A DNA stretch of 64,000 bases from the IMG/VR virus record IMGVR_UViG_2571042690_000019; one strand, given 5' to 3'. The notes below the pieces were generated by a model, which did not search any database, was not told the origin of the DNA, and was given only the letters and a program-made list of their open reading frames with translations. Positions 5,148 to 60,053 of the stretch are shown here, one piece after another (the first letter of the stretch is position 1; each line of letters begins with the position of its first letter). Source of the stretch: a virus (Duplodnaviria > Heunggongvirae > Uroviricota > Caudoviricetes). The translations under genes were made by a program, and so were the position numbers.

Positions 5148-5191
5148 CATTTGTGTTAGAAAATACATATTAATTATCTAACACAAATGGG
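5148..5191. promoter_or_regulatory. inverted pair of operator-like motifs (14-bp perfect inverted repeat CCATTTGTGTTAGA / TCTAACACAAATGG, 16-bp spacer) upstream of the rdgC-dmt operon
   Basis: perfect inverted repeat read directly; each arm carries the TCTAACA core of the dispersed motif. Confidence 0.5.
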
Positions 5192-5853: not shown

Positions 5854-6830
5854 TTGTTAGGCACTCCCAATATCATTCGTGTTGTGTAGCCTACGCGGTC
5901 CTCAAAGTGCGCAACATTTTTTACTATCAGCTTACGGGGCATTGATTCATCAATGCGGTTTTCCTGGTCATAGCGGTATACGATAATCTCTATTACCATC
6001 CCCGGTTTTATATCAGGATTGCCTGCGACTTCTATATCCATTTTGGGGACGAGAGACAGCTGCATATTGCGAAGAGTTTCCATATCAGAGTCGGATATAT
6101 AACGTACTGGGAGTGAGCTATCGCCATATTCGACGTAGCCATCGGTCATGGAATACCCAACAAAACGATATTGATTCTTTGCTGTTGTCGCATGTTCCTG
6201 TTGGAGTAGGCGCATTTTGGACAAAGTGTATTCTGCTTTAGGGTTATTCCCCTCGTAGGTAAATGATGGCGTTTGCTTCATCAGATCAGCCAGGGTGTAA
6301 AAGTTAAATTCCCCCCGGCATACCCAACATAATGCACCTTTGTCTCGCGCTATCTCCGAAAGCATTTTTGACGGTTTGTCACCGGCATTCAGATGATATG
6401 TAACTGCGCGTTTTAGCACGCTGCTGGTAATTTTAAGCTTGCCGGAATATGCCTTGAATATAGCGTCTGGTGTTTTGTTGGTATGTAAATTTGTGCGCGG
6501 GGAGGGGATCTTAAACCTGCGCACGTCTTCACTGACAGCAATAACGGTAACAACATCACCAGCCAGCATTGCAGACGTAACAAAGAAATCTGTTTTAAAA
6601 GTGCCTGCATTACCGTTTGGATCGCCCATTTCAGCCACCAGCGATGCACCGTATTTGGCTTTCCAGTCATCAATTACGGTGCCGGTAGCGTCATGAATTT
6701 CCAGTTTTAGCAAAGGGGCTTTGAGGCTGGTTTTTTCTACATATACTGCGGTAAAAATCCAGTCTCGTGGCACTTTGTTATCGTTAATGAGCACTGACTG
6801 TAGAAAATATTGTTGTAACTCCTGGGCCAC
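5850..6830 (-). CDS. hypothetical phage protein
   Basis: 326-aa ORF, start overlaps upstream stop. Confidence 0.55.
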   Translation of the reverse strand: MAQELQQYFLQSVLINDNKVPRDWIFTAVYVEKTSLKAPLLKLEIHDATGTVIDDWKAKYGASLVAEMGDPNGNAGTFKTDFFVTSAMLAGDVVTVIAVSEDVRRFKIPSPRTNLHTNKTPDAIFKAYSGKLKITSSVLKRAVTYHLNAGDKPSKMLSEIARDKGALCWVCRGEFNFYTLADLMKQTPSFTYEGNNPKAEYTLSKMRLLQQEHATTAKNQYRFVGYSMTDGYVEYGDSSLPVRYISDSDMETLRNMQLSLVPKMDIEVAGNPDIKPGMVIEIIVYRYDQENRIDESMPRKLIVKNVAHFEDRVGYTTRMILGVPNK

Positions 6831-6833
6831 TTA

Positions 6834-7601
6834 TCACCCCATAGATATCGAGGTTTCGGTAATAATACGTTTTGCGTCCAACTCCCATGCTGTGATCACG
6901 TCTGCAATCACACTTATCGGCGCTTGTGTGGCATAAATACGCTCTTCTCCAATTGGTGCTGAAACATCCGTAAAGCCGACTTCTTTGGCATCCTGTATCG
7001 AGCAAATCAGCGGGACCGGAACACGAACAAGGTGAGTGGTTGCTTCAAATTGTGTACCTGTCATCAGGCGAAGCCGTGCGCCCAGCGAATTACACATCAG
7101 ACTCATGGTCGCTTTATCAGTTGCCATTAACGTAACGTCATACGTCAGAATGGCCTGGGTGTATTCCAGTTCTGCTAAAGGCATTCCGGTATCCGGTTCG
7201 CAAAAACTGGCTACTTTTTTGCGGTCAATCTGCTGATCATCGTTGATATAATTGATATCCATAGTGCGTGAGATATTGACCAGGGGGAGAGCATCCCGGT
7301 TAATGTTCTGGTTTTCAGGTTTTCTCCCTTGCCCGGCATTTGCGCGACGAACTGCTTTAAGAAACTCGATCGCATTGTCGAAACGGGCCACATAGACACG
7401 CTCTGCTGGTGGACGATTCAAGAATGACGCAAAGCGTTTTTCTTCCGGCGCGGGGGCCACCAGTAAGATATCAGAAAAAATGTTGCTGATTAGCGTCGCA
7501 AACGCGTTATCCACGTTTTCAAAGCCCGTGGTCTGGAATTTTCCTGTGCGTGAGGTTTGCCATTCACCTGTTCGCGCCAGGAGGGTTTTATTTGAAGTCA
7601 T
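6834..7601 (-). CDS. hypothetical phage protein
   Basis: 255-aa ORF in the same operon. Confidence 0.55.
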   Translation of the reverse strand: MTSNKTLLARTGEWQTSRTGKFQTTGFENVDNAFATLISNIFSDILLVAPAPEEKRFASFLNRPPAERVYVARFDNAIEFLKAVRRANAGQGRKPENQNINRDALPLVNISRTMDINYINDDQQIDRKKVASFCEPDTGMPLAELEYTQAILTYDVTLMATDKATMSLMCNSLGARLRLMTGTQFEATTHLVRVPVPLICSIQDAKEVGFTDVSAPIGEERIYATQAPISVIADVITAWELDAKRIITETSISMG

Positions 7602-8401
7602 TCGATCACTCCGTTTTGAGTCGTATCAAAATTCCTGGCTGGTATGCAGTAGTAAAGCGAACCAACATGCTGTGTGCCGTAGCTAAAAATACGGTGCACG
7701 TACCACCAGCGGCGGGCTACGCCGTTTACCATCTCTTCATTCCATTCAAGAATTGAGCCGACGGGGACGTTATTTGCTGCAATACGCAGAATCAGAACAT
7801 CATCGGTTAAGCCATCCTGCTCACCGTCTGCGTCAATCGCATGGAAAGAGTCACGCCCGTCCGGGTTATCCAGCACATAAACGATTTCAGGTTCCTGGTA
7901 AGTCAGTTCGCGTTGGTTGTTATCCAGTTCAGTGAATGACTCTTCTCCTGTTTCGTCGCTGACTACCCCATATGTGCCAACATCTGGTCGATATAAGAGA
8001 GCCTGAAACGCGTCTGGGCTGGATTCAATAATCAGCATCCAGTCTGCGCGGATTTGGTCGTTAAAGGCTTTATGCCCGTTATAGCGTGCTTTTAACTGTG
8101 GAGTCGGTTCTCTGCCAGCCAGGGAAGATGGAAGTATGGCTATATCTGATTCGCCAGCATCCGGAGTAAGGCCACCGTTGCTATCAGCAAAATTATCATG
8201 GCTATCAGCTTTGGCGGCGGGTTGCTCTTCCAGAATGCTGAATGAATCCGAACCGGTATTGCCATGTTCCGGCGCGCCTCCTGCATTCGCTTCAATCGGC
8301 GCTGGCGTTTCTCTCTGCGTGCTGTCATGTTCTGACTCCTTACTTGCCAGGTTTGCATCGTCAGCAAACCATTCGTCAAAACGGCCCATAAGCATCCTCA
8401 A
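7598..8401 (-). CDS. hypothetical acidic phage protein
   Basis: 267-aa ORF, Asp/Glu-rich N-terminal half. Confidence 0.55.
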   Translation of the reverse strand: MRMLMGRFDEWFADDANLASKESEHDSTQRETPAPIEANAGGAPEHGNTGSDSFSILEEQPAAKADSHDNFADSNGGLTPDAGESDIAILPSSLAGREPTPQLKARYNGHKAFNDQIRADWMLIIESSPDAFQALLYRPDVGTYGVVSDETGEESFTELDNNQRELTYQEPEIVYVLDNPDGRDSFHAIDADGEQDGLTDDVLILRIAANNVPVGSILEWNEEMVNGVARRWWYVHRIFSYGTQHVGSLYYCIPARNFDTTQNGVIE

Positions 8402-11819: not shown

Positions 11820-12011
11820 AACAAAGCCTCTCAGTCATAACCTGGGGGAAACTGTATGCAGGGTGTGAAATGCGAGAAACAGACAGGCCACCAGTTCAGG
11901 GGGATGTGGTTCATAAATCCCCTCACTGGTGACAAGTGACTTTCATTAATCTTTATGCGGGGGCCAGCTTCATTTGCTGGCATTAGATTAAAAATCAAAC
12001 GGAGTAAATGA

Positions 12012-15867: not shown

Positions 15868-16183
15868 ATTGGCAGCCTCCTTTGACTAAGTTAAGGAGCT
15901 ACCGCGTGAGGTTCCAATCTCAATGGCGGTAGCACTGACTGGGTTGGAACTACCGGCGTCAAAGGGAACCGGCCTGCCTTTCGGCAGCCCAGCCAGCACT
16001 ACCATTGATCTCTGAGCTAAACGCTAAGTATGGCTGTGCGATGGCATGACACAAAAAAAGACGCGTTCGGCGTCTGTGTCGCCTTTGACATTATCCGGGG
16101 TTCCAATCCCGGCACCCGTTTTTCTAAGGTGCCGTAGAAATATACCCCACGATAATGCCATGGCGCAACAGTCAGTATTTTAT

Positions 16184-34910: not shown

Positions 34911-34925
34911 ATGTTAGAAAACTAA
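34911..34925 (-). promoter_or_regulatory. operator-like motif TTAGTTTTCTAACAT immediately upstream of gene 34940
   Basis: dispersed conserved motif 15-29 bp before ATG. Confidence 0.45.
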
Positions 34926-34939
34926 ATCGAGTAGGAATA

Positions 34940-35977
34940 ATGAGTAAGAAGTCGATCGAGAAAGAGTACAAACGGTTCCTGCAAACCGCTGAACGGTGGA
35001 AAGAGCTGGTGGTCGCAAACTCTGTTTTCCATGATACCAGTTATGCTGGCGAGGAATTCCGCCATGTTGCATTAACGCATGACCAAAACATATTAGAAGA
35101 AGCTGAAAAATGTCTTGCTGAATGGAAAGCCTTCGTTGACATGTGCCGCGATGCCGACGGCAAAGCGTCGAACATTGTTGAGTCTGTATATTCTCCGATC
35201 CCATTCATCATTGAGGACACCAATCAAAGCACGCATGTCGTTGTGCAAAGCGCTACAACAACACGTACATTTACACGTGAACAATTGCTAAAAAAATACG
35301 ACAAAATCATAAAGAAAAGCCTTAAAAATAGGGTTTTTTCTCAAATCGTAGGTGATCTTGAAGAAGAACAGCGCTTCTTTGAAGCTGAGCCTGAAGGCGA
35401 GATCTACCGGGCGCGTAAAGAGGCATATACAGATGTTGTGCTGACAACAAACATCGAAGGCAGCAATGCCCTTTCTCGCTTTAGAGTTGGCGCACATGGT
35501 GCATTGGTTTTCGCAAGACTACCGAAGACAACGATCCCCGTTGTCAATAATGTTGGTGAACGCCGGAGCATTACAATTTATTCTGGCGTCGAATCGGTAC
35601 CTTGCAGCCTTCTCGGCGATTTTAACTTATATCGTGTTCGTGACCTGGAAAAACACCAGCCAAGCTATGTTGCGAAGTCGTACATCTTAAGGAACATCGA
35701 TATTCGCAATGAAAGCCTTAAGCAGAAATCCGCTAAGATGCTGGAGGATGCCGATCCGGCTATTCGCCATATCATTGAGCGTAAGATACGTACATCACGT
35801 GAAGCAATGGCAAGGCTGGATAAAATGGATCTGGAATTGTTAGACGTAATGATGGCCTCTGGAGACGACCTGACCGGCATTAAACTGAATGAAGCTCGTA
35901 AAAAATACGGCAAAGCAATCGAAGAACGTTACGGATACACATTCCCCCAAACGCAGTACGCCGCGAAGCTCTGGTAA
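34940..35977 (+). CDS. hypothetical protein at the position of the P1 immunity repressor c1 (between pacB and the lox site)
   Basis: 345-aa ORF with RBS; functional call is by synteny only, no sequence similarity to C1 could be confirmed. Confidence 0.55.
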   Translation: MSKKSIEKEYKRFLQTAERWKELVVANSVFHDTSYAGEEFRHVALTHDQNILEEAEKCLAEWKAFVDMCRDADGKASNIVESVYSPIPFIIEDTNQSTHVVVQSATTTRTFTREQLLKKYDKIIKKSLKNRVFSQIVGDLEEEQRFFEAEPEGEIYRARKEAYTDVVLTTNIEGSNALSRFRVGAHGALVFARLPKTTIPVVNNVGERRSITIYSGVESVPCSLLGDFNLYRVRDLEKHQPSYVAKSYILRNIDIRNESLKQKSAKMLEDADPAIRHIIERKIRTSREAMARLDKMDLELLDVMMASGDDLTGIKLNEARKKYGKAIEERYGYTFPQTQYAAKLW

Positions 35978-39374: not shown

Positions 39375-39767
39375 CTACCAGCGAGACAAACGAACAACAT
39401 GTTTCACTTTTGCGATCCACTGTCCGCGATAACTATTGATTACGGCCTGTGCCAGCTTCAAATTGGCTTCAAAATCAGCCTTACTACCATCAGACTCCAC
39501 CAGCATTCCTCCATCTATTTCTGGTAAACATAGATAATCCTGCTCAACCTGCAGCGGCATTGATGGCTCTCTGAATGGGGTTACTTGCTCTGCTTTCCAG
39601 CGAAATCTAACCCTTATCCCCCTGGTGGTCATTACTAGATAGCCTGTTATAGTGCTTTTATGGCCCACATCAGTACGCGTGGCATTGCATGACACGATCT
39701 TACAGTTAGCGATAGACCACTCCATATTGGTGGCCTGTTGAGTGCTTAATTTGGTAGTCCCGTACAT
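39375..39767 (-). CDS. hypothetical protein
   Basis: 130-aa ORF. Confidence 0.45.
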   Translation of the reverse strand: MYGTTKLSTQQATNMEWSIANCKIVSCNATRTDVGHKSTITGYLVMTTRGIRVRFRWKAEQVTPFREPSMPLQVEQDYLCLPEIDGGMLVESDGSKADFEANLKLAQAVINSYRGQWIAKVKHVVRLSRW

Positions 39768-40342
39768 CAGAAAGCCTCCCAGTCAGTCGCGATAATATCC
39801 ACACCAGTTGCAAACCAGTCTGTCTGCGCCTGTAAATCCCCATTCATCATTACCAGGCGAGGCATCACCATCACATCGCACCCTTCCACAATATCGAATG
39901 CCTCTTCCGGCAAGAATTCGAAGAGCTTTTCTTTGCTGCCAATACTGCCACGGAACATCGATATATAGCTCCCTTTGGGCCATGATGTCCGCCGGGCATC
40001 AAGCCCTTTCATCATCCAGTAAAAAGCCGAGGAAAAAGGGATATTCTTTTTGCCAATGATTACATTATTCGCTTCTGTGTACTTCAGGAACTTAACTAAC
40101 CTTACCATTGACTCGGATAACGCAACGTATGGCTCATGATTGATTGCTGACACGCTTACACCGTGCAATCCAACGCTTACCACTGTCATATCGCCGCTCT
40201 GTGCGGTTTCGATATTGACGCCTTTGCGAACTAATGAGGCGTAAAGTTCCTCTCGCTTTTGGGTCCAGCGTTCCCGCTTCCCTATGAAGTCACTCAAAAT
40301 GAGATCTTCTTCTGCATATGCGTTATCGTTCGCCATTAACAT
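39767..40342 (-). CDS. DUF2829-like phage protein
   Basis: AFYWMMKGLDARRTSWPKGSYI segment. Confidence 0.5.
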   Translation of the reverse strand: MLMANDNAYAEEDLILSDFIGKRERWTQKREELYASLVRKGVNIETAQSGDMTVVSVGLHGVSVSAINHEPYVALSESMVRLVKFLKYTEANNVIIGKKNIPFSSAFYWMMKGLDARRTSWPKGSYISMFRGSIGSKEKLFEFLPEEAFDIVEGCDVMVMPRLVMMNGDLQAQTDWFATGVDIIATDWEAF

Positions 40343-40796: not shown

Positions 40797-40872
40797 TGGT
40801 GGCCCCTACCGGACTTGAACCGGTGACCGTGCGATTATGAGTCGCCAGCTCTAACCACTGAGCTAAGGGGCC
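40797..40872 (-). tRNA. tRNA-Ile (anticodon CAU, ileX-like) or tRNA-Met
   Basis: GGCCCCTTAGCTCAGTGGTTAGAGC...CTCATAA...GGTTCAAGTCC...GGGGCCACCA; cloverleaf folds; near-identical to E. coli ileX as recalled. Confidence 0.75.
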
Positions 40873-41590: not shown

Positions 41591-41857
41591 TGGTTATCCC
41601 TCAATAAACATGACGTATTTATTAGGTTGCGGTGCCTGGTGCCTCCAGGTGACGTTAACCAGTTAACAATTAACGCCGGGATGTTTGACTTAACCACTAA
41701 GGAGGATTGTTTTAACTGTTCCGCGTGCGCATAGCCGCATTCACCGCAATGGTAAGAGCACTTGGCTGGCTGGGCGGCGATGACGCCTGTACGCATTTGG
41801 TGATCCGGTTCTGCTTCCGGCATTCGCTTAATTAGCCAAATACTCTTAACGTTGCAC

Positions 41858-41944
41858 TGGCGGAGAGTAATGGAATCGAACCATCATCGCTTGCGCAATG
41901 GGACGGTTTTCAAGACCGTTTGAGCACCATGCTCCCTACTCTCC
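41858..41944 (-). tRNA. tRNA-like gene, possibly tRNA-Ser (anticodon UGA), non-canonical A8
   Basis: 7-bp acceptor stem, anticodon arm ACGGT-CTTGAAA-ACCGT similar to E. coli serT, long variable arm, TTCGATT T-loop, 3' CCA; D-arm atypical. Confidence 0.35.
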
Positions 41945-42277
41945 AGTGATTGTGATGGTCGGTGCTGAACTCCGACACAGGGTTGTAGCAAGCCCCGCAA
42001 AGCGCGCACTACTGTAGTTGCGGCACATCAGCCTGTGCATTCACCACAATGTTGAGAACACTGGTTGTCACGCTGCAACGCAACATTTATTCGTAGATTG
42101 GGATATGACCCCGTTACGCCAGTGTTCTCAACGTTATAGTGCCGGTTACGGTTCCGGCCAGGCCTCTTCCTCAACGGGGTGTTCTCCATACGGACTACCG
42201 TTTATTGGTCGTTCCTGCGGTTTATGTTGTGAAGCCAGATGCTTATCTTCTGGTTGCTTCAAAGAGCTGCACTTCAT

Positions 42278-42345
42278 CACAACGGTAAGAGCACTCGATG
42301 CATTTAAGCCAAGCCCCATAAGGGAGAATGCCCTTACCTGTTGTG
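42278..42345. repeat. conserved-stem hairpin element (CACAACGGTAAGAGCAC ... GCCCTTACCTGTTGTG)
   Basis: imperfect inverted repeat sharing stem consensus with elements at 42474..42560 and 42917..42991. Confidence 0.5.
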
Positions 42346-42473
42346 TTGTGATGACCGGTGCTGATCTCCGGCTTGCGGTTATTTCAGACTCTCACGGGCG
42401 TTTAATTGCCCCGCCGAACAGCTCTTTTCCGCAATAGCTGCAATGTCTTTCGCGCATCAGCCTGCGCATTCAT

Positions 42474-42560
42474 CACAACGGTAAGGGTACTTCGTAGGGA
42501 TTCGAACCCTCTGCCAAGCTCGGCGATCTCCGACGTCGCAAAATACCCTTACCTGTTGTG
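42474..42560. repeat. conserved-stem hairpin element enclosing a tRNA-like T-arm fragment (GGGATTCGAACCC)
   Basis: CACAACGGTAAGGGTAC ... TACCCTTACCTGTTGTG inverted repeat, immediately downstream of tRNA-Thr on the minus strand. Confidence 0.5.
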
Positions 42561-42561
42561 C

Positions 42562-42637
42562 TGGTGCCGATTAACGGACTCGAACCGCTGACATCCTGCT
42601 TACAAGGCAGGCGCTCTACCAACTGAGCTAAACCGGC
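42562..42637 (-). tRNA. tRNA-Thr (anticodon UGU)
   Basis: GCCGGTTTAGCTCAGTTGGTAGAGC...CTTGTAA...GGTTCGAGTCC...CGGCACCA cloverleaf. Confidence 0.8.
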
Positions 42638-42639
42638 AT

Positions 42640-42715
42640 TGGCGATGGTGGATGGATTTGAACCATCGACCCGTTGATTAACAGTCAACCGCTCTAACCG
42701 CTGAGCTACACCATC
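42640..42715 (-). tRNA. tRNA-Asn (anticodon GUU)
   Basis: GATGGTGTAGCTCAGCGGTTAGAGC...CTGTTAA...GGTTCAAATCC...CACCATCGCCA cloverleaf. Confidence 0.8.
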
Positions 42716-42916
42716 ACTTGCCGGGTACGTCTCCGGCGAGGGCTTCCACCTCCGTATGCTTTTCGGCGCACCGCGCCCTGGGTGCAATTCGGTAACAGGG
42801 GATGCACAACCCTGGCTTCCAGCGTGATTAGCGCCTTCAGCATGACGGGATATACCCGTAGTAGGATGTTATCCCAGAAAGCCATTAACCAATGGCTGTT
42901 ACGCGGGAGGGACGTA

Positions 42917-42991
42917 ACAGGTAAGGGCGCTGACCAGAAAGACCTGACCCTTCTCATTCATCTGGTTAATCACACCAGCGCCCTTGCCTGT
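42917..42991. repeat. conserved-stem hairpin element (ACAGGTAAGGGCGCTG ... CAGCGCCCTTGCCTGT)
   Basis: 16-bp near-perfect inverted repeat with GGTAAGGG core. Confidence 0.5.
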
Positions 42992-43210
42992 TATGCCTCC
43001 CCGTTCCCTAATACACAGACGGGGACACTCTGCGGTCGATTTTTTGACGGGGGACGACTCATACCCCGTGGCGTCAGGCTTCTTAGGCCGCTACCATCAT
43101 CAGATCATCGTTTGCATTTACTTTAATGGTCGGGTTCTAAACCGCCGCAAAGTCGCTAACCATGACGAAAACCCTAAAAAAGCCCACCCGAAGATGGGCA
43201 AATACGCTAC

Positions 43211-43287
43211 ATCTCACACAAGAAAGAAGCCGACTGCCTGAGCTGGATTCACTTTCAAATGCCCGCTGAAAGGGATCACAAGTCGGC
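43211..43287. repeat. long perfect hairpin (15-bp arms AGAAAGAAGCCGACT / AGTCGGCTTCTTTCT) in non-coding region
   Basis: inverted repeat read directly; no supporting ORF in the surrounding 1.2 kb. Confidence 0.5.
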
Positions 43288-43517
43288 TTCTTTCTTGATG
43301 CGGCACTCTCTCCGCCCGTCACCGCTCTGTCTCGGTTGTCGCGTTTGCCACGCCAGCCGTAACGAGGTTTAAAGTCTTTGCACGTTTCCATCACTCGACT
43401 GCCGTCTGTGGCTGTTCGTTGCAGCGGGGGTGCCTCCCCCTGGGGATATCCCCGGCCTTACCCCATTCTTTCAAGACACAATGCAAGGCCACATCCGCAT
43501 AGGTGCATTACCGCAAC

Positions 43518-43572
43518 ATTAAGGAGACTCAGGGCAAAAGGTAACCGCCACAAAAATCCCTATGCCTCCTTA
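43518..43572. repeat. long perfect hairpin (13-bp arms CAACATTAAGGAG / CTCCTTAATGTTG)
   Basis: inverted repeat read directly. Confidence 0.5.
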
Positions 43573-43934
43573 ATGTTGAAGATGTGCATTGATGATTAGA
43601 TGCAGCATGTACCGTTACTCTCTGCCGGACCATCATCAATGAACACCTTAAAAAGACCTTCCGTGGCTCAACATGTATTGTCGTTTACTCCGCAAAGTGC
43701 TCTCTCTGAAACCACTTTCCGCACTAAACCTGTTGAACTTTGGTCTGCTCGGTGCCAAAGCGTGCTCTTGGTTTACTATACTTTTCTAACACTTTAATTT
43801 GTTAATTGCTGGTGGGCATACAATAACCAATAAGTGACTATCAAGCCCAGCAAGCGAAACGTGGGTACCGCCCACCAGCAAGGAAAATTCTATGTTAAGT
43901 CATCTTCACAATCAATACATTCAAATTGTGATTT

Positions 43935-43948
43935 TAGATTTCTAACAC
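43935..43948 (+). promoter_or_regulatory. operator-like motif AGATTTCTAACACA
   Basis: dispersed conserved motif at 3' side of gene 43950..45158. Confidence 0.4.
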
Positions 43949-43949
43949 A

Positions 43950-45158
43950 TTATTTCCCGTAAAGATCTTCTACACCCCCATTCTTCTTATCCCATTCGTT
44001 CGCCCATACCCGGCAAGCGTCAATGATTTCCTGACGACGATCTCCTTGCATGAACGGAATGCTTTCATGGAAACAGCTTGGAATGCAGGCCACACTGAAT
44101 ACAGTATCAAACTCCGTCTGCTTGATTGCCTCCAGCGTCTCCGGACGCATTTTTAATTCATCGATTGGCGCATCCTTAGAGTCCATAATCCGGCGATATA
44201 AGCGCGGAAAATCCGTCTCCAGGTACGCCATAATTTTATCTGCGAGACATTCGTCTATGTCGGTATTCCAGTCCTTTTCGAAGCCCGGCAGGCGATAGTA
44301 AAGCGGCGTTCCCCATACCGATGGGATCACATCCATCGTTAACAGGCGATTAGTTCTGATTTGTTGATGGTAATTAGCCGTCAGCAGTGCTTCGCCACGC
44401 TGCCCAGTTTCCGCAACCAGGCTGTGCGGATACTCATGGATGTAGGCAATGGCATCCCTTCCATCATACATAAGTGGAAATGTCTCTGGTCTTTGTCCCA
44501 TGCCACAAGCACGGTTCAGATCGTGACCAAGCTGTGAACACTCTCGCTTTAATGTTTCGATAATGCTCTGCGCTGTAGCCAACTTTTTACGCAGTGTGAC
44601 GCCTTCGCCTTGATAATCAATGCATTGCTGATTGAGCTTGGTTAAACGCTCTTTTAGTTCCCGGCGCTCTCTTTTCAGCGTGCGGTTATCCTTCTCCGCA
44701 ACATCCAGCCGCTTTGTCAGGCTTGGCGGATAGTCTTTTTTGTAACGGTTCAAATCGGCTTCGGCAGATTTACGCAGTGTATTTGCCTGTTCAAGACGCG
44801 CTTCCAGATTGCCGATCTCATTACGCATATTCGCGGCAAATTGATTAACTGCATCGCCCAGGCTTTCAACTGTCGCTGATACGCCTGTGACTTGTGAAAA
44901 ACGGATCAAGCCATCATTAACGGCTTGTTGGTATTCCTCAAACTGATCCACCAGCTTATTGTAATCAACTGCCCCATCATCAAGCAGCTTGTTGATTTCC
45001 GCCACTAGGTTATCTGTAGTGGCAATGACACTCTCGTGCAGTCGCTTTGACAGGTCATCACCCGGATTCCGTTTCTGTATAAGAGCGATTTGTGTGCGCA
45101 GCGTTTCAATTGCTGTCGAGATAATTTCCAGATTAGAAGTATCAGTGTGTTGACTCAT
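43950..45158 (-). CDS. hypothetical protein, N-terminal coiled coil, C-terminal globular domain
   Basis: 402-aa ORF flanked on both sides by operator-like motifs. Confidence 0.6.
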   Translation of the reverse strand: MSQHTDTSNLEIISTAIETLRTQIALIQKRNPGDDLSKRLHESVIATTDNLVAEINKLLDDGAVDYNKLVDQFEEYQQAVNDGLIRFSQVTGVSATVESLGDAVNQFAANMRNEIGNLEARLEQANTLRKSAEADLNRYKKDYPPSLTKRLDVAEKDNRTLKRERRELKERLTKLNQQCIDYQGEGVTLRKKLATAQSIIETLKRECSQLGHDLNRACGMGQRPETFPLMYDGRDAIAYIHEYPHSLVAETGQRGEALLTANYHQQIRTNRLLTMDVIPSVWGTPLYYRLPGFEKDWNTDIDECLADKIMAYLETDFPRLYRRIMDSKDAPIDELKMRPETLEAIKQTEFDTVFSVACIPSCFHESIPFMQGDRRQEIIDACRVWANEWDKKNGGVEDLYGK

Positions 45159-45183
45159 TGCTATTCCCGTTACTTTGTTAAAT

Positions 45184-45198
45184 TATTTTTCTAACATA
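45184..45198 (+). promoter_or_regulatory. operator-like motif TATTTTTCTAACATA
   Basis: dispersed conserved motif ~30 bp upstream of gene start at 45158. Confidence 0.45.
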
Positions 45199-45240
45199 TA
45201 TTATTAGTTTGATGACAGTATCGAAAGATGCAATAAACAA

Positions 45241-45266
45241 AAAACCCGCTAATTGGCGGGTTTTTA
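45241..45266. terminator. bidirectional Rho-independent terminator
   Basis: AAAACCCGC-TAATTG-GCGGGTTTTT. Confidence 0.6.
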
Positions 45267-45271
45267 TGCAA

Positions 45272-45586
45272 TTACTGTGTTGCAGCCTGATAAATAAGAT
45301 ACGCGATAAATACAGGTACGATGGCCAATTGCAGCAATGAAAGTAGCCTCATTACTGTTATTGGGGTAACTCCATCCACGTATTGTTTCTCTGACATTTT
45401 CCCGAACCAACTAACCGACAACAGTGCCGAGTTTTCCCCCAATTCCAGCTCTCTGAGAGCTTCACGGATTAACGGCGCTGTCACAGCCTTAACCGGTGTG
45501 CTCAACGTGATACTCCGCGTCCTCCCCGCATCGTCAGCGAACGCCAGACTCACATAATATTTTTTGCTCAATGTACAAACTCCCAA
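45272..45586 (-). CDS. hypothetical protein with C-terminal transmembrane segment
   Basis: 104-aa ORF. Confidence 0.45.
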   Translation of the reverse strand: MGVCTLSKKYYVSLAFADDAGRTRSITLSTPVKAVTAPLIREALRELELGENSALLSVSWFGKMSEKQYVDGVTPITVMRLLSLLQLAIVPVFIAYLIYQAATQ

Positions 45587-45782: not shown

Positions 45783-46277
45783 TTAATCAAGACAAACATA
45801 CTCCGTGATAGCTTTTATGGCTTCAGCGGCACTGCGCGCCTCAAAGCAGTAGTAACCGGCTTCTGTGAGGCGAGTCATCCAGACGAGTTGTTCGGGAGTC
45901 AGGCGATTTCTCCCATGTTTCATCTCAATGCGCATTCCGTGGTATCCCCCACAAGCAAGGTCTATAGAAAGATCGGGATATCCCTTCTTTTGGCCCTCTG
46001 CCACCATTTTTATTGCCGTCCTTATGCCTCGCAGGCCACCGTTTGGAGTGGCGTGAGTATGCTCATACACATAACGCATATTGCGATACATCCAGTCCAG
46101 GACGCGAACCTGCTCGTAATGCTCATGGTTCCTTTTGATTAGATCTGGGTTTTTCTCCAGTTCTCTAAGAGCTGCGGCATGTGGGGATGTTTCAGAATAT
46201 TCACTGCGACGCCTTCTCTTTCGCGCTATTTTTCTAACACACCCATTGATAGTAAATATGCGAAATAATAACAACAA
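45783..46277 (-). CDS. VRR-NUC-like nuclease domain protein (true start probably downstream of 46277)
   Basis: GYPDLSIDLACGGYHGMRIEMKHG pattern; operator-like motif lies within the first codons of the longest ORF. Confidence 0.45.
   Translation of the reverse strand: MLLLFRIFTINGCVRKIARKRRRRSEYSETSPHAAALRELEKNPDLIKRNHEHYEQVRVLDWMYRNMRYVYEHTHATPNGGLRGIRTAIKMVAEGQKKGYPDLSIDLACGGYHGMRIEMKHGRNRLTPEQLVWMTRLTEAGYYCFEARSAAEAIKAITEYVCLD
46228..46242 (+). promoter_or_regulatory. operator-like motif TATTTTTCTAACACA
   Basis: dispersed conserved motif. Confidence 0.4.
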
Positions 46278-46413
46278 CGTTAGATTTGTAAAACAAGAGA
46301 GATACTACTCAAGGATGGTCTATATGCAACAGGTCGGATTTGCTTTTAGAGTAAAGAGTGACCTTAATCAACAAGGAGGGTAAATCGCATGGCATTTACC
46401 CAACCTGTTATTT

Positions 46414-55782: not shown

Positions 55783-56128
55783 AGTTACGGCCTCACTAAC
55801 AGGTTTAACAACCTGCTACCCGCTGTCAAACAGGTGGCAGGACGTGACAGGGTTGACAGACTGGCGTTAGTGAAACCAGCAGGCCGAAGCCTCCCCATCA
55901 CGCCCCACCATAATTCGGGCGTAACGTGGTTTACGGACACAAAAATACCGCAATATCGGAAATCTGCGGTTGTCCGCACTAACATTCAGGCTGTCAAACC
56001 TGGTCGCAGAATTTGCTACGACGGCATGAATATAAGCCTGAAAACATGGAAGATCAACTAAAAATTTCAGCAATGGATGACTTCAGTCGATGATGCAGAT
56101 CATACATTCCGATTTAGAAACAGCAAAT

Positions 56129-57358: not shown

Positions 57359-58357
57359 TCACCCCCTTCTGGAAACGAAGAGTAACGGGGTGGTGTTTTT
57401 GTTCTCCTTCGGTGATAACTCTGGTTCTTTCTTGCCTGATACCGGTAAGCCATAAGTAGCATTTGCCCCAAGAGATTCAAGCATCGCAGCCACTATGCGG
57501 GCATCATCTTCAGACTGCATACGGCAGAGCGCCCGGCGCTGTTCTGCGCTGATAAAAACAGGCATTTCCTGGATAGCGTCACGCAAAATCCGGCGGCATT
57601 GCTTTGCATTTTCCCCCTGGCTTTCCATCATCGCTGTTTGAGCGCGCAGCTTATCTCGAAGCTGTATGTTTTCCACTTCAAGGAGCATCAATTCTGATTC
57701 CAGGGCTTCACGATGTGCAGATTCGAGCATGGCTTGCTGATTTTTCATTGCCGAAAAGTGGTGAACCAGATCCGTAGCAGCGTTATCGGTAAAACCTTGT
57801 TCGATAAGTGCTGCATGAATAGCCGCATCGCGCTCTTCTGCTGATTCAAGCATCAGGCTTTTCTTGTCGAGGCTGATATAGTTAGGCACAGTTACGTAAT
57901 CAAAGCCGTGGAAAGACTTTACCAGGGATACCGATGAATCTGGACCAGATGTAGCCCACGACCAACCACCAGCACCAGAATTAATCATGCCCTGAACAAT
58001 ACGCCCGGTGTCTGTATCCAGTATTTCCTGCGTATGAGTAACAATGCCGTTGTCGTCAATCGAAATGTCGATAGTCCTGTTTGACGGCACGTTCTCCAAT
58101 ACAACAGGCTTCCCATCTACCATCACAACAGAGACTTCCGGCAAGTTCAGGCTTTTCGTTTTGTTATAGTGCATCGCCCGGCGACCATGACCGTAATAAC
58201 CATACATCTCACCCAGCGCGATACGCTCTTTTGTTTCTGGCGAGTTGAATGTGTCTCGTACCGACTGAATGACGTAATTTCGGTTGTTCTGCGGTGTGTG
58301 TTTGCGGATTTTCTCTACCAGGGAGAAGCGATCCGTAACAGTATTCAGTGATTGCAT
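57359..58357 (-). CDS. hypothetical phage protein
   Basis: 332-aa ORF, C-terminal coiled coil. Confidence 0.55.
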   Translation of the reverse strand: MQSLNTVTDRFSLVEKIRKHTPQNNRNYVIQSVRDTFNSPETKERIALGEMYGYYGHGRRAMHYNKTKSLNLPEVSVVMVDGKPVVLENVPSNRTIDISIDDNGIVTHTQEILDTDTGRIVQGMINSGAGGWSWATSGPDSSVSLVKSFHGFDYVTVPNYISLDKKSLMLESAEERDAAIHAALIEQGFTDNAATDLVHHFSAMKNQQAMLESAHREALESELMLLEVENIQLRDKLRAQTAMMESQGENAKQCRRILRDAIQEMPVFISAEQRRALCRMQSEDDARIVAAMLESLGANATYGLPVSGKKEPELSPKENKNTTPLLFVSRRG

Positions 58358-58370
58358 TATTTCCCTCCGG

Positions 58371-60053
58371 TTAATTGCTCATCACAAATTTTGCAAAGTT
58401 TATTAACTGTTCTGGCGTCCAGTTTTCCGGATCGTCACCGGACGACAACGGCGCGGATTCGTACATACCATGCTCGTTGTTTTGCTCTGATTCATTCGCC
58501 TTAAACTCTTTGATCATGGTGTTGAGAGTGTCATCGTCGATGTGCAACTGCTCAGTGAACAGATAACGCATAAACGCGTCGCTACCAGCCAGTTTCGGGT
58601 TGTTCTGGATCTGGTCCATAATTTGGGAGATGACAGCAACAAAGTTGGCGCGTGCATCCAGTTCTCGGTTTTCCTCTTCCTGGATAGCAGTGTTCATTGA
58701 GTTGAATTGCACGTCATAAGGGCGGTTTGTTTCGGTGTAAACCTTGCCGTATTTATAAGCGAGGTGAATGTCCAGAAGCCGATAAATAGTTCGCTGGGCG
58801 GCCTGTCTGATCCAGTTCGCACGCAATGCAGCCTGGATAGCAGTTTGCTGCCAGCCGCCTTCTCCAAGCCCTCCGCTCATCTGATCAGCCCAGCCAAGCA
58901 TTGTTGCGTCAATGCCGAGGCTTGCAGCAAGCTGCCGGAGGTGAAACATAACGTCTTCGATACCACTGATATCTGCGGGTATGGATTGCGTATCAATGGT
59001 GATGCCGTTCTTCCCGTCTCCCATAACAGGTATCAGATGGTTAAGCACAGTCGGAATAGCGTTGGCATTAATCGACCTTTGCGCCACCAGGTCACTATGA
59101 CGCTTCAATGCCTGGCTGACGCCACGCGTATAGTTCGCCGCATTAACCGGGTCCAGTGTGTTCGTCGTAAGAGCAATCAGGCGGTCAATTTTGGCTGCAT
59201 TATTTCGCGTTGATTTCAGCGCGGCGAGCGAAGCACATAAATTAAGGTAAGGTTCATAGCTGTATTCCAGGAATGAAGTTCCGTAATTCTGCGTCTCCAT
59301 TAACGGCTTATCAGCCTGATCACTTAACAGTGAGTACCCTTTTGTGCCGTAGCTAACCGGAATAACTTTATGCTGTGGCGTCCAATAGGGATTTTTCATG
59401 GAAACCAGATTCCACGGTTCGGTTATTACTCTGCGCAAACTATGCGTATCCAGAATGTAATCACCACTGAAACCTACCAGCTGGCTACCACGATAAAACT
59501 CCTGGACGAAGTGTGGCAGAGTGTAATAACTGGACTCAATGCCTGTTATCCCCCTGCCCTGTTCAGCATAAGGTCGGACATAAGACACCCCAAAGATAGC
59601 CATAATCATGGCCCATGAAGGAAGTCCGTCATTAATCATCGCCCCCAAATCAGCGGTTAACTCTTCACATCTACTTACTGCCTCGGCATCGGAACCATCC
59701 TTTGGCGAAAGGATGAATGCTTGTCCGGTTTTTTTTGAAGGCGCAAGCGCATGTGCAATGTGAATGTTTAAAGCCGTCGAGATAGTCGGGCTTTTAGCCA
59801 TCGTTTCCAGGATGTTGTACTTTTGCAGGCGCTCGCCGGGCAGTTCAGCGGATAAAGAAATTGAATCTGCTGCACTCGTCATGCCATCGCTGTTGCTCCC
59901 CAGTATACCTGGACGTAAAGCAGACAGGCCGGAACGAGCAACGACACTATGCCCGCTCGTAAAAACGACCGGATCGGCGGGCGTAACATCACCACCGTTG
60001 AAGGCTTTCTTCAATGCTGACAGAAAGCCTTTGTTTTTGTCTTTCGTTGCCAT
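58371..60053 (-). CDS. hypothetical phage protein
   Basis: 560-aa ORF with acidic C-terminus; size and composition compatible with a portal protein but no motif confirmed. Confidence 0.55.
   Translation of the reverse strand: MATKDKNKGFLSALKKAFNGGDVTPADPVVFTSGHSVVARSGLSALRPGILGSNSDGMTSAADSISLSAELPGERLQKYNILETMAKSPTISTALNIHIAHALAPSKKTGQAFILSPKDGSDAEAVSRCEELTADLGAMINDGLPSWAMIMAIFGVSYVRPYAEQGRGITGIESSYYTLPHFVQEFYRGSQLVGFSGDYILDTHSLRRVITEPWNLVSMKNPYWTPQHKVIPVSYGTKGYSLLSDQADKPLMETQNYGTSFLEYSYEPYLNLCASLAALKSTRNNAAKIDRLIALTTNTLDPVNAANYTRGVSQALKRHSDLVAQRSINANAIPTVLNHLIPVMGDGKNGITIDTQSIPADISGIEDVMFHLRQLAASLGIDATMLGWADQMSGGLGEGGWQQTAIQAALRANWIRQAAQRTIYRLLDIHLAYKYGKVYTETNRPYDVQFNSMNTAIQEEENRELDARANFVAVISQIMDQIQNNPKLAGSDAFMRYLFTEQLHIDDDTLNTMIKEFKANESEQNNEHGMYESAPLSSGDDPENWTPEQLINFAKFVMSN

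What the first reader, a model, noticed from the sequence alone, without database searches (positions are those of the whole stretch)
43935..45198. Coiled-coil gene bracketed by operator-like motifs in the same orientation
The 402-aa gene on the minus strand has an operator-like motif at its 3' side (43935) and another 30 bp upstream of its start (45184), both in plus orientation. This suggests either repressor-controlled expression with antisense transcription or bidirectional operator use; the protein has no recognisable family.
Basis: seen in the sequence. Interest (0 to 1): 0.4.

Follow-up and report, generated by a model that had tools for sequence, protein, structure and literature searches.

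The report
Repressor operators flanking phage gene pmgS
The window is a close relative of the P1-like phage-plasmid D6; the "coiled-coil gene" is its pmgS homologue, and the two flanking motifs are most likely binding sites for the prophage's C1-type repressor, one shutting off pmgS and the other belonging to the next operon, which is ordinary P1-style prophage regulation with a different operator sequence.

Summary
A 402-aa ORF lies at 43950-45158(-). TTTCTAACA copies lie at 43939 and 45188, both reading on the + strand. The 9-mer occurs 11 times in the window against 0.52 expected.

The window is 98% identical to Escherichia phage D6. The gene is D6 orf9, a distant full-length homologue of P1 pmgS (PHROG 1660, E=1.9e-145). 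The claim of "no recognisable family" is therefore wrong.

The motif is an asymmetric site of about 17 bp, TGTTAGAAAAnTAAnnT, that also forms palindromic pairs. Nearly all copies are intergenic. They precede c1, lpa, repL, two C4-RNA/icd/ant modules, ref, hrdC-dmt, a tRNA/tci operon, pmgM and pmgS. This is the P1 C1 regulon with a different sequence. I conclude it is the operator of the D6-type C1 repressor.

In four relatives (PmgS 45-74% identical) an operator-type site persists upstream of pmgS, next to a conserved sigma-70 promoter. Two exact sites persist downstream, flanking a second conserved promoter that drives the tRNA operon. That operon is homologous to the leader of the P1 Op72/ban operon.

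Antisense or bidirectional use is not supported. PmgS itself is a long coiled coil plus an RNAP alpha-CTD-like (HhH)2 domain, and it is unlikely to be a scaffold protein.

The parts
43950..45158 (-). pmgS homologue (D6 orf9), 402 aa. Residues 7-217 form four long helices (coiled coil). Residues 226-330 form a small alpha/beta domain. Residues ~335-395 (nt ~43980-44153) form an RNAP alpha-CTD-like (HhH)2 domain.
   Evidence: - ORF.
- 99.3% identical to D6 orf9.
- PHROG 1660, E=1.9e-145.
- 21% identity over the full length to P1 PmgS, E=3e-13.
- AlphaFold models with pLDDT 85.3 and 91.5.
- Profile hits to RAD51-N and alpha-CTD, E about 1e-5 to 1e-6.
45180..45197 (-). Operator O(pmgS). It reads A-TGTTAGAAAAATAATTT in the direction of pmgS transcription; the core is 45188-45196.
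   Evidence: - 29.7 bits, the second-best site in the window.
- TGTTAGAAA is retained at this position in L005. L007 and L008 carry one-mismatch versions (TATTAGAAA, CGTTAGAAA) despite diverged flanks. L006 keeps only the inverted half-site at this position.
45198..45226 (-). Inferred sigma-70 promoter of pmgS: -35 TTTCGA (45226->45221), 17-nt spacer, -10 TAATAT (45203->45198). The operator core starts 1 nt after the -10, so it would cover the transcription start.
   Evidence: My own reading of alignment A3. The relatives read TTCCAA-17-TAAAAT, TTTTAA-17-TACAAT, TTTACA-16-TATAAT and TTTACT-16-TATAAT in the same columns. The site falls below the threshold of the scan. This is an inference; no TSS data exist.
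45240..45265 (-). Intrinsic terminator ending the upstream pmgM-orf11-pmgR unit, which makes pmgS its own transcription unit.
   Evidence: A 10-bp stem followed by a T run. A hairpin plus T run is present in all five loci with different stem sequences, which indicates compensatory change.
43931..43947 (-). Operator O1, reading TGTTAGAAATCTAAAAT in the minus direction. It abuts the pmgS stop codon and lies about 24 nt upstream of the next promoter's -35.
   Evidence: 25.8 bits. GTGTTAGAAA is invariant in all five loci, while mean column identity is 54%.
43887..43915 (-). Conserved sigma-70 promoter TTGATT-17-TAGAAT pointing towards the tRNA/tci operon.
   Evidence: Found by the scan. TTGATT is invariant, and TA[G/C/A]AAT is conserved in the same columns in all five loci.
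43790..43866 (-). Long stem GCUGGUGGGC...GCCCACCAGC enclosing about 55 nt, located between O1 and O2. Function unknown.
   Evidence: RNA fold of -33.4 kcal/mol, z=-2.4. The 5' arm TGCTGGTGG is conserved in all loci. The 3' arm is present in L005 and L007.
43775..43791 (-). Operator O2, reading TGTTAGAAAAGTATAGT. It may sit in the spacer of a second promoter, TTAACA-19-TATAGT.
   Evidence: 21.9 bits. AAATTAAAnTGTTAGAAA is conserved in all five loci. In L005 it reads CTAACA-17-TATAAT. In L007 a sequence that reads like a tRNA (my reading of the alignment; no tRNA scan was run on L007) follows O2 directly.
42469..43202 (-). Leader of the downstream operon, including tRNA-Asn (42640-42715) and tRNA-Thr (42562-42637). 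It is homologous to the leader of the P1 ban operon.
   Evidence: - 93.5% identical to P1 68855-69594, which covers the end of the dicF-like region, trnA and trnT.
- That P1 stretch lies downstream of C1 operator Op72ab/Pban.
- tRNAs are on the minus strand.
34940..35977 (+). c1 homologue (345 aa), the proposed trans-acting repressor. Its own upstream region carries an operator (core 34912-34920) with the same geometry as at pmgS.
   Evidence: - Corresponds to D6 orf1, annotated "prophage repressor, similar to P1 C1" in the D6 record; the window ORF itself was not aligned to D6 orf1.
- 21% identical to P1 C1 over 268 aa, E=1e-8: one search does not apply here.
- Upstream sequence reads TCGACA-17-TTTTA|TGTTAGAAA...AGGAATAATG.

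Best explanation
The window is a D6-type P1-family phage-plasmid. The recurring motif (consensus in the functional orientation 5'-TGTTAGAAAAnTAAnnT-3', about 17 bp and asymmetric) is the operator of this element's C1-type prophage repressor, encoded at 34940-35977.

**In the lysogen.**
- C1 bound at 45180-45197 sits directly after the -10 of a sigma-70 promoter and over the presumed start site of pmgS. It therefore keeps pmgS silent.
- When C1 is inactivated, pmgS is transcribed as an early, monocistronic message. That message begins just after the terminator of the upstream pmgM-pmgR unit.

**The motif on the 3' side.**
- The motif at the 3' end of pmgS (O1, 43931-47) is not part of pmgS control.
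- Together with a third copy (O2, 43775-91) it flanks the promoter or promoters of the next minus-strand operon: leader, tRNA-Asn, tRNA-Thr, tRNA-Ser, tciA, tciB and so on.
- That operon is the counterpart of the C1/Op72-controlled ban operon of P1.
- The shared orientation of the two bracketing motifs therefore reflects two co-directional, C1-repressed units.

**The protein.** PmgS is a coiled-coil (probably dimeric) protein with a C-terminal RNAP alpha-CTD-like (HhH)2 domain. It is more likely an early DNA- or transcription-associated accessory protein than a prohead scaffold.

**Shown versus inferred.**
- Shown: motif enrichment, the positions of the sites, their conservation, the homologies and the fold.
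- Inferred: that C1 binds the motif, the exact promoters and start sites, and what PmgS does.
For: **1. Enrichment.**
- 11 exact copies against 0.52 expected.
- 15 matrix sites, 14 of them outside ORFs.

**2. Regulon match with P1** (site positions; P1 annotation).
- c1/cre (34912), matching P1 Op99.
- lpa (39345), matching Op94. This site is conserved about 80 nt upstream of lpa in L006 and L008.
- repL (57332), matching the operator P1 carries before its kilA-repL operon. That operator lies outside the P1 stretch I fetched, so this link rests on memory of the P1 literature.
- Two Rfam C4-RNA/icd/ant modules (16669, 56133), matching the operator of the P1 c4-icd-ant (immI) operon. This link also rests on memory.
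- ref (17327), matching the ref operator, again from memory.
- hrdC-dmt (5154/5175), matching Op68.
- pmgM (46231), matching Op82/83.
- pmgS (45188), matching Op86a/b, annotated as "controls expression of pmgR and pmgS".
- The tRNA leader (43783, 43939), matching Op72. The DNA downstream is 93.5% identical to the P1 ban leader.

**3. Architecture like P1 operators.**
- The sites are asymmetric and occur in either orientation relative to the downstream gene.
- Four are palindromic bivalent pairs, GTTAGA-N16-TCTAAC, about 30 bp. P1 Op72ab and Op99ab are 28 bp.

**4. Repressor and reciprocal exclusivity.**
- A C1 homologue is present but only 21% identical to P1 C1.
- The P1 operator core has 0 matches in the window.
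- TTTCTAACA has 0 matches in 44.8 kb of P1.

**5. Phylogenetic footprint.** In four relatives with PmgS 45-74% identical, the two downstream operators and their adjacent promoter stay in place while the flanks diverge. An operator-type site also persists at the pmgS promoter in all four.

**6. Same geometry at c1.** The order -10, operator, SD, ATG is seen at c1 as at pmgS.
Against: - No binding or transcript data exist. C1-operator recognition is inferred only from regulon conservation.
- The pmgS promoter has a weak -35 (TTTCGA) and was not picked up by the consensus scan.
- In L006 the right-hand half-site upstream of pmgS is missing.
- O1 lies about 60 nt upstream of the start site of the next promoter, an unusual place for simple occlusion. 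Its role may be cooperative or involve looping, or it could contribute to pmgS control after all.
- I could not read the D6 genome paper to see whether its authors define the operators differently.
Confidence: 0.78

Rival explanations
1. The motif is a promoter element (for example the D6 equivalent of the -22 box of Lpa-dependent late promoters), and pmgS is a late morphogenetic gene.
For: - At pmgS, the tRNA promoter and c1, the motif is followed after about 2 nt by a TAnnnT hexamer. This loosely recalls the P1 late-promoter layout of a 9-bp box, 4 nt, then the -10.
- An Lpa homologue is present.
- D6 annotates orf9 as a putative scaffolding protein.
Against: - The orientation relative to the downstream gene is mixed. 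TGTTAGAAA points towards c1, pmgS, pmgM, the tRNAs and ref. TTTCTAACA points towards repL, lpa, the first C4 module and orf117.
- The motif precedes c1, lpa itself, repL and the immunity modules, which cannot depend on Lpa.
- No copy lies directly upstream of the portal-protease, tail or pac gene clusters.
- The P1 late box is AAGTGACTT, which is unrelated. One such box exists separately at 11934.
- Palindromic pairs fit an operator and do not fit a promoter box.
Confidence: 0.05
2. The + strand orientation signals antisense or bidirectional use: a + strand promoter over the upstream motif makes a short RNA antisense to the pmgR-pmgS junction.
For: - A + strand hit TTGTTA-16-TATATT (45175-45202) overlaps the motif.
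- The hairpin at 45240-45265 has an A run on one side and a T run on the other, so it could terminate a + strand RNA of about 60 nt.
- There are weak sub-threshold Rfam hits to leader and sRNA models on the + strand at 45162-45269, E 0.07-0.4.
Against: - The count of promoter-like hits equals the shuffle expectation, 4 against 3.2.
- By my unscored reading, the -35 and spacing are not conserved in relatives, whereas the minus-strand -35/-10 are.
- The Rfam hits are far below gathering scores, about 23-25 bits against 43-55.
- The orientation is fully explained by two co-directional minus-strand units.
Confidence: 0.05
3. The two flanking operators cooperate. C1 bound at 45188 and 43939 (1.25 kb apart) loops out the whole pmgS gene to tighten its repression.
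For: - O1 abuts the pmgS stop codon in every relative.
- O1 sits too far upstream (about -60) to occlude the next promoter on its own.
- From memory of the P1 literature, not re-read here, P1 C1 has been reported to loop DNA between operators in the c1 region.
Against: - O1-O2 spacing varies among relatives (156, 163, 125, 143, 141 bp) with no helical phasing.
- A conserved promoter lies between O1 and O2, which gives O1 a local role.
- ref is similarly flanked (17327 and 16669), but there the downstream site clearly serves the C4/icd/ant module.
Confidence: 0.1

Closest known systems
Bacteriophage P1 C1 repressor/operator system (operators Op86a/b before pmgR-pmgS, Op72ab before the ban/tRNA operon)
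   Same: - An asymmetric site of about 17 bp with an AT-rich 3' half.
- Many dispersed intergenic copies.
- Monovalent sites and overlapping inverted bivalent forms.
- The same set of controlled genes, including pmgS and the tRNA leader.
- A homologous repressor gene next to the lox/rox-cre region.
   Different: - The operator sequence is unrelated in its 5' half: TGTTAGAAAA against ATTGCTCTAA. There are no cross-matches.
- The repressor is 345 aa against 283 aa and only 21% identical.
- Here pmgS is separated from pmgR by a terminator and has its own promoter and operator, whereas P1 co-transcribes pmgR-pmgS.
- Here the tRNA operon follows pmgS directly, whereas in P1 pap and pmgT follow.
Escherichia phage D6 (MF356679), orf9 'putative prohead scaffolding protein, similar to P1 pmgS'
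   Same: 98.3% DNA identity over 43700-45500 and 99.3% protein identity, with the same gene order darB-ulx-orf13-pmgM-orf11-pmgR-pmgS-tRNAs-tciA/B-...-lpa-pacA.
   Different: - The GenBank record annotates no operators or promoters.
- It places the tRNAs on the wrong strand.
- The window differs from D6 elsewhere, for example by a ~173-bp stretch at 42296-42468 that has no counterpart in D6.
- Evidence from P1 does not support the scaffolding label.
RNA polymerase alpha-subunit C-terminal domain / RAD51 N-terminal (HhH)2 domains
   Same: - The family profile hits RAD51-N and alpha-CTD at E about 1e-5 to 1e-6.
- 10 of 44 family members hit Pfam HHH_5 and 6 of 44 hit RNA_pol_A_CTD.
   Different: - In the D6 clade the GxG hairpin of the second HhH is degenerate: FMQGDRRQEI against KGIGxKTAxxI in distant members.
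- DNA binding is untested.

Membership tests
P1-type C1 repressor operators | Asymmetric site of about 17 bp present in many dispersed, mostly intergenic copies | tested here: met
   11 exact core copies against 0.52 expected. 15 matrix sites, 14 outside ORFs. Information content extends about 9 nt on one side only.
P1-type C1 repressor operators | Sites precede or overlap promoters of c1 itself, lpa, lytic replication, immI, ref, dmt, ban/tRNA and pmgR/S (the C1 regulon) | tested here: met
   Site positions set against the gene map, Rfam C4 hits and the P1 annotation. The P1 operators before ref, c4-icd-ant and kilA-repL lie outside the P1 stretch I fetched, so those three links rest on memory.
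P1-type C1 repressor operators | Occurrence of bivalent operators made of two overlapping inverted copies (~28 bp) | tested here: met
   Pairs at 5154/5175, 17307/17327, 22559/22580 and 56113/56133 read GTTAGA-N16-TCTAAC, about 30 bp. P1 Obanab and Oc1ab are 28 bp.
P1-type C1 repressor operators | Sequence matches the P1 consensus ATTGCTCTAATAAATTT | tested here: not met
   0 matches to ATTGCTCTAAT with up to 1 mismatch in the window. Only the AT-rich 3' part (TAAnTT) resembles it. This is therefore a heteroimmune analogue and does not belong to the P1 operator sequence family.
P1-type C1 repressor operators | A C1-family repressor is encoded by the element | tested here: met
   The ORF at 34940-35977 corresponds to D6 orf1, annotated "prophage repressor" in the D6 record. 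It is 21% identical to P1 C1 over 268 aa, E=1e-8. No Pfam model hits it.
P1-type C1 repressor operators | Physically bound by the repressor, with repression of the adjacent promoter | not testable with these tools
   Needs EMSA, footprinting, ChIP or reporter assays.
PmgS family (PHROG 1660) | Full-length match to the family profile and to P1 PmgS | tested here: met
   phrog_1660 E=1.9e-145 over residues 1-401 of 402. BLASTP to P1 PmgS covers residues 11-395 against 17-415, E=3e-13. 86 cluster representatives were found with the family profile.
PmgS family (PHROG 1660) | Synteny with pmgR immediately upstream | tested here: met
   The D6 annotation has pmgR-like orf10 upstream. The same order holds in L005-L008 and in P1.
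Prohead scaffolding proteins | Essential for head assembly | not tested
   Not testable here for D6. For the P1 homologue, a CRISPRi screen and a knockout library list pmgS as non-essential (PMC10695390 table). PMC9024508 names only pmgA, B, C, G and R as essential, and says no scaffold has been identified in P1 and that the capsid protein's N-terminal domain probably serves that role.
Prohead scaffolding proteins | Encoded in the head-gene cluster and expressed late | tested here: not met
   Portal and protease lie at 57359-60053, far from pmgS. pmgS sits between pmgR and a tRNA operon, behind a repressor operator and a sigma-70-like promoter, with no P1-type late box nearby. In P1 the gene is annotated under C1-controlled PpmgR.
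RNAP alpha-CTD-like (HhH)2 domain | Five-helix fold with two helix-hairpin-helix motifs | tested here: met
   [not shown]
RNAP alpha-CTD-like (HhH)2 domain | Conserved DNA-contacting hairpin residues (GxG; R265-equivalent) | tested here: inconclusive
   hGxGxxxA is clear in distant family members but degenerate in the D6 clade. No residue-level superposition was done.

The most novel reading that the evidence does not exclude
PmgS is an early, C1-repressed, dimeric coiled-coil protein that uses its RNAP alpha-CTD-like domain in one of two ways. It may bind AT-rich (UP-element-like) DNA. Alternatively it may act as a decoy for factors that normally dock on the host alpha-CTD, which would help redirect host transcription or protect phage DNA at the start of lytic growth. 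If so, the "pmg" (putative morphogenetic) label of a family conserved in all P1- and D6-like phage-plasmids is wrong.
Probability: 0.15. Interest if true: 0.6.

Novelty: new member of a known kind. Interest (0 to 1): 0.25.

Why it matters
**Regulation.**
- The work gives a sequence-level definition of the immunity operator and the C1 regulon of D6-type phage-plasmids. These elements are common in Escherichia coli and Salmonella; the protein cluster has 922 member sequences.
- The GenBank record carries no regulatory annotation.
- The regulon has been conserved while repressor and operator co-diverged beyond recognition from P1.
- This is useful for annotating these plasmids, predicting heteroimmunity, and choosing sites for engineering.

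**Protein.**
- The scaffold label on D6 orf9 is doubtful.
- The PmgS family carries an alpha-CTD-like (HhH)2 domain, which gives a concrete hypothesis for a conserved gene of unknown function.

None of this is a new kind of system.

Tried and rejected
**Searches that led nowhere.**
- The D6 genome paper (Gilcrease & Casjens 2018; DOI and PMC5800970) and the P1 genome paper (PMC523184) are not held. I therefore cannot say whether the D6 operators were already described in print. A full-text search for "phage D6" plus "C1 repressor" found nothing.
- Rfam at permissive E-values over 41800-45300 gave only the tRNAs and sub-threshold noise. There is no DicF or other sRNA family in the 1.1-kb leader or at the pmgR-pmgS junction.
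- The word-indexed protein search with the family profile added no new homologues.
- PADLOC hits to JetC and LmuB are weak coiled-coil matches (E >= 2e-5, <= 20.6 bits) and were rejected as compositional.
- Pfam hits for the D6 protein itself are all sub-threshold coiled-coil families.
- Foldseek against BFVD gave nothing significant. The AFDB50 library was unavailable.
- tblastn at 1e-5 does not even find P1 pmgS. The relationship needs pairwise or profile methods.

**Ideas considered and rejected.**
- The late-promoter idea was rejected on orientation, on the identity of the target genes, and on the unrelated P1 -22 box.
- The cysteines and histidines conserved in the D6 clade (C358, H364, C382) are not conserved in P1 PmgS or in the wider family. 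I therefore dropped the idea of a zinc site or catalytic site.
Full report
**What is there.**
- The ORF at 43950-45158 on the minus strand (402 aa) is real.
- TTTCTAACA-containing motifs lie at 43935-43949, abutting the stop codon, and at 45184-45198, 26-40 nt upstream of the ATG. Both read on the + strand.
- The 9-mer occurs 11 times in the window against 0.52 expected, and no shuffle reached that number.
- Aligning the copies extends the motif on one side only: A..TTAgTTTTCTAACAyA.
- A weight matrix then recovers 15 sites of at least 19 bits. All but one lie outside ORFs, although about 86% of the window is ORF.
- A third copy, at 43783, sits 156 bp beyond the one at the gene's 3' end.

**Identity of the window and the gene.**
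- Region 43700-45500 is 98.3% identical to Escherichia phage D6, a P1-like plasmid prophage.
- The ORF is D6 orf9, annotated [quoted passage not shown].
- It matches PHROG 1660, "PmgS-like", over its full length at E=1.9e-145.
- It aligns collinearly with P1 PmgS at 21% identity, E=3e-13.
- A profile search of 1.84 billion representatives finds 86 family clusters, mostly 350-470 aa.
- The protein therefore does have a recognisable family, although that family has no established function.

**What the motif is.** I mapped every site onto the gene map and the RNA genes. Sites lie upstream of:
- c1/cre (34912);
- lpa (39345);
- repL (57332);
- two immI-like modules containing Rfam C4 antisense RNAs followed by icd and anti-repressor genes (16669, 56133);
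- ref (17327);
- hrdC-dmt (5154/5175);
- pdcB (22559/22580);
- orf117 (33502);
- pmgM (46231);
- pmgS (45188);
- a tRNA/tci operon (43939, 43783).

The fetched part of the P1 GenBank record annotates C1-repressor operators in front of the counterparts of c1/coi/cre, lpa, dmt, ban (with its tRNAs), pmgL/gene 26 and, explicitly, "pmgR and pmgS" (Op86a/b). From memory of the P1 literature, ref, the c4-icd-ant operon and kilA-repL also carry C1 operators, but those sites lie outside the stretch I fetched.

**Architecture compared with P1.**
- The sites are asymmetric and occur in either orientation relative to the downstream gene.
- Four sites are palindromic pairs, GTTAGA-N16-TCTAAC (about 30 bp), comparable to the 28-bp bivalent Op72ab and Op99ab of P1.
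- The element encodes a C1 homologue that is only 21% identical to P1 C1.
- The two operator vocabularies are mutually exclusive. There are no P1-type cores in the window and no TTTCTAACA in 44.8 kb of P1.
- I conclude that the motif is the operator of the D6-type C1 repressor. The regulon has been conserved while repressor and operator co-diverged.
- Binding itself is inferred and has not been shown.

**Why it is not a late-promoter box.**
- The P1 late promoters carry AAGTGACTT at -22, which is unrelated to the motif. One such box exists separately at 11934.
- The motif precedes lpa and c1 themselves.
- No copy lies directly upstream of the portal/protease, tail or packaging clusters.
- Its orientation relative to the gene it precedes is mixed.

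**Anatomy around pmgS, from comparison with relatives.** Four related loci (PmgS 74, 55, 52 and 45% identical) share the order darB-ulx-orf13-pmgM-(orf11)-pmgR-pmgS-(gap of about 1.3 kb without ORFs); lpa-pacA follows the gap in L006 and L008, as it does in the window.

Upstream of pmgS (alignment A3), reading in the gene's direction:
- An intrinsic terminator comes first. Its stem sequence differs between loci but stays complementary (window 45265-45240).
- A sigma-70-like promoter follows. In the window it reads TTTCGA-17-TAATAT at 45226-45198. In the relatives it reads up to TTTACA-16-TATAAT.
- One nucleotide later comes TGTTAGAAA. A Shine-Dalgarno-like purine run and the ATG follow.
- In the three more distant relatives a second, inverted half-site (TTTCTAATA) overlaps the spacer and the -10.
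- The same order of -10, operator, SD and ATG is seen at c1.
- A repressor bound here would cover the start site. The promoter assignment is my reading of the alignment; the consensus scan missed it because of the weak -35.

Downstream of pmgS (alignment A4), again in the gene's direction:
- GTGTTAGAAA at the stop codon is invariant in all five loci, against 54% mean column identity.
- About 24 nt further lies an invariant TTGATT, and 17 nt after that TA(G/C/A)AAT. This is the one minus-strand promoter the scan did find (43915-43887).
- Next comes a conserved TGCTGGTGG that pairs with CCACCAGCA about 60 nt later.
- Then comes AACAAATTAAAnTGTTAGAAA, the third copy, in all five loci.
- In L007 a sequence that reads like a tRNA follows immediately; I did not run a tRNA scan on that locus.
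- In the window, the DNA from 43202 to 42469 (minus strand) is 93.5% identical to P1 68855-69594. That stretch covers the end of the dicF-like region, trnA and trnT, which in P1 lie just downstream of Op72ab/Pban.
- tRNA-Asn, tRNA-Thr, tRNA-Ser, tciA, tciB and a further tRNA follow on the minus strand.
- The 3' motif therefore belongs to the control region of the next C1-repressed operon and not to pmgS.

- Repressor control of the gene is supported.
- Antisense or bidirectional use is not needed and is not supported. The common + orientation follows from two co-directional minus-strand units that both use the operator in the TGTTAGAAA-towards-gene orientation.
- The + strand promoter-like hit over the upstream motif is within chance expectation, 4 hits against 3.2. 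By my unscored reading, it is not conserved.
- No RNA family matches there above noise.
- A looping role for the pair cannot be excluded. The variable, unphased O1-O2 distances (125-163 bp) and the promoter between them argue for a local role.

**The protein.**
- AlphaFold with a 44-sequence alignment gives a confident model with mean pLDDT 85.3. It has four long helices (residues 7-217), then a four-stranded alpha/beta unit, then a helical C-terminus.
- The C-terminal 186 residues modelled alone reach pLDDT 91.5 and pTM 0.86.
- Foldseek gives probability 0.97-0.99 and target TM 0.7-0.77, but the global E-values are not significant because the match is one small domain.
- Sequence evidence agrees independently. 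The family profile hits RAD51-N, Brr2 Sec63-HhH and alpha-CTD chains at E 5e-7 to 4e-5. Of 44 members, 10 hit Pfam HHH_5 and 6 hit RNA_pol_A_CTD.
- In the D6 clade the second hairpin's GxG is degenerate, so DNA binding is uncertain.
- The middle domain has no convincing structural neighbour.

**Is it a scaffold?** Probably not.
- In P1 the homologue is listed as non-essential by both a CRISPRi screen and a knockout library (PMC10695390).
- The P1 virion study names no role for it. It states that no scaffolding protein has been identified and that the capsid protein's N-terminal domain probably serves as scaffold (PMC9024508).
- P1 annotates the gene under a C1-controlled sigma-70 promoter.
- Here the gene lies far from the portal and protease genes and behind a repressor operator.
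- My best guess is an early accessory protein, associated with DNA or with transcription. This is inference from the fold and the expression class only.

**Novelty and score.**
- The phage, the gene family and the regulatory logic are all known.
- What is added is the D6-type operator sequence and regulon, the reassignment of the 3' motif to the tRNA operon, doubt about the scaffold label, and the alpha-CTD-like domain.
- The operators are not annotated in GenBank, and I could not check whether they were described in the D6 paper.
- This is a new member of a known kind and of modest interest.

Noticed in passing
window 39767-40342 (-): This 191-aa ORF (D6 orf6, annotated "hypothetical") carries a Thoeris anti-defence Tad2-like domain: PF11195, E=1.1e-9, 39.1 bits against a cut-off of 25. 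The same gene sits upstream of lpa in relatives L006 and L008.
   Followed up: partly
window 42562-42715, 41858-41944, 40800-40872 (-); D6 record 6084-7850: ARAGORN and Rfam place all tRNA genes on the minus strand. The D6 GenBank record lists them on the plus strand. It also omits a tRNA with anticodon CAT, the counterpart of P1 trnI, at D6 6084-6159, which corresponds to window 40800-40872.
   Followed up: yes
window 15922-16132 (-) and 55830-56035 (-): There are two separate immI-like modules. One is a C4 antisense RNA (77.1 bits) with an isrK-like RNA. The other is a second C4 RNA (68.8 bits) with its a1b1 target element. Each is followed by icd-like and anti-repressor genes and preceded by an operator copy.
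   Followed up: partly
window 43790-43866 (-): A conserved long-range stem, GCUGGUGGGC...GCCCACCAGC, encloses about 55 variable nucleotides between the two operators downstream of pmgS. It lies just after a conserved promoter. The fold is -33.4 kcal/mol with z=-2.4, and no Rfam family matches. It could be a leader structure or a small RNA of the tRNA operon.
   Followed up: partly
window 42469-43202 and 41951-42295 (-): These stretches are 93.5% and 99.1% identical to P1 (68855-69594 and 69572-69916). Neighbouring genes such as pmgS and c1 are only about 21% identical to P1 at the protein level. This looks like recent exchange of the tRNA-leader segment between P1-type and D6-type elements. 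A ~173-bp stretch (42296-42468) is absent from both D6 and P1.
   Followed up: no
window 46231-46239 (+), inside the 5' end of the pmgM-like ORF 45783-46277 (-): This is the only strong operator copy inside an annotated ORF, 46 nt downstream of its TTG start. A weaker copy lies at 46285, just upstream of that start. The same intragenic position is kept in L005, at 2914 with the gene start at 2897. Either the real start lies further downstream or the operator lies within coding sequence.
   Followed up: no
window 11934-11942 (+): This is the single exact P1-type late-promoter -22 box followed by a -10-like hexamer: AAGTGACTT TCAT TAATCT. It lies between the gene 26-like and mat-like genes, where P1 has LP26/LPpmgL. 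Other late promoters of this element were not identified.
   Followed up: partly
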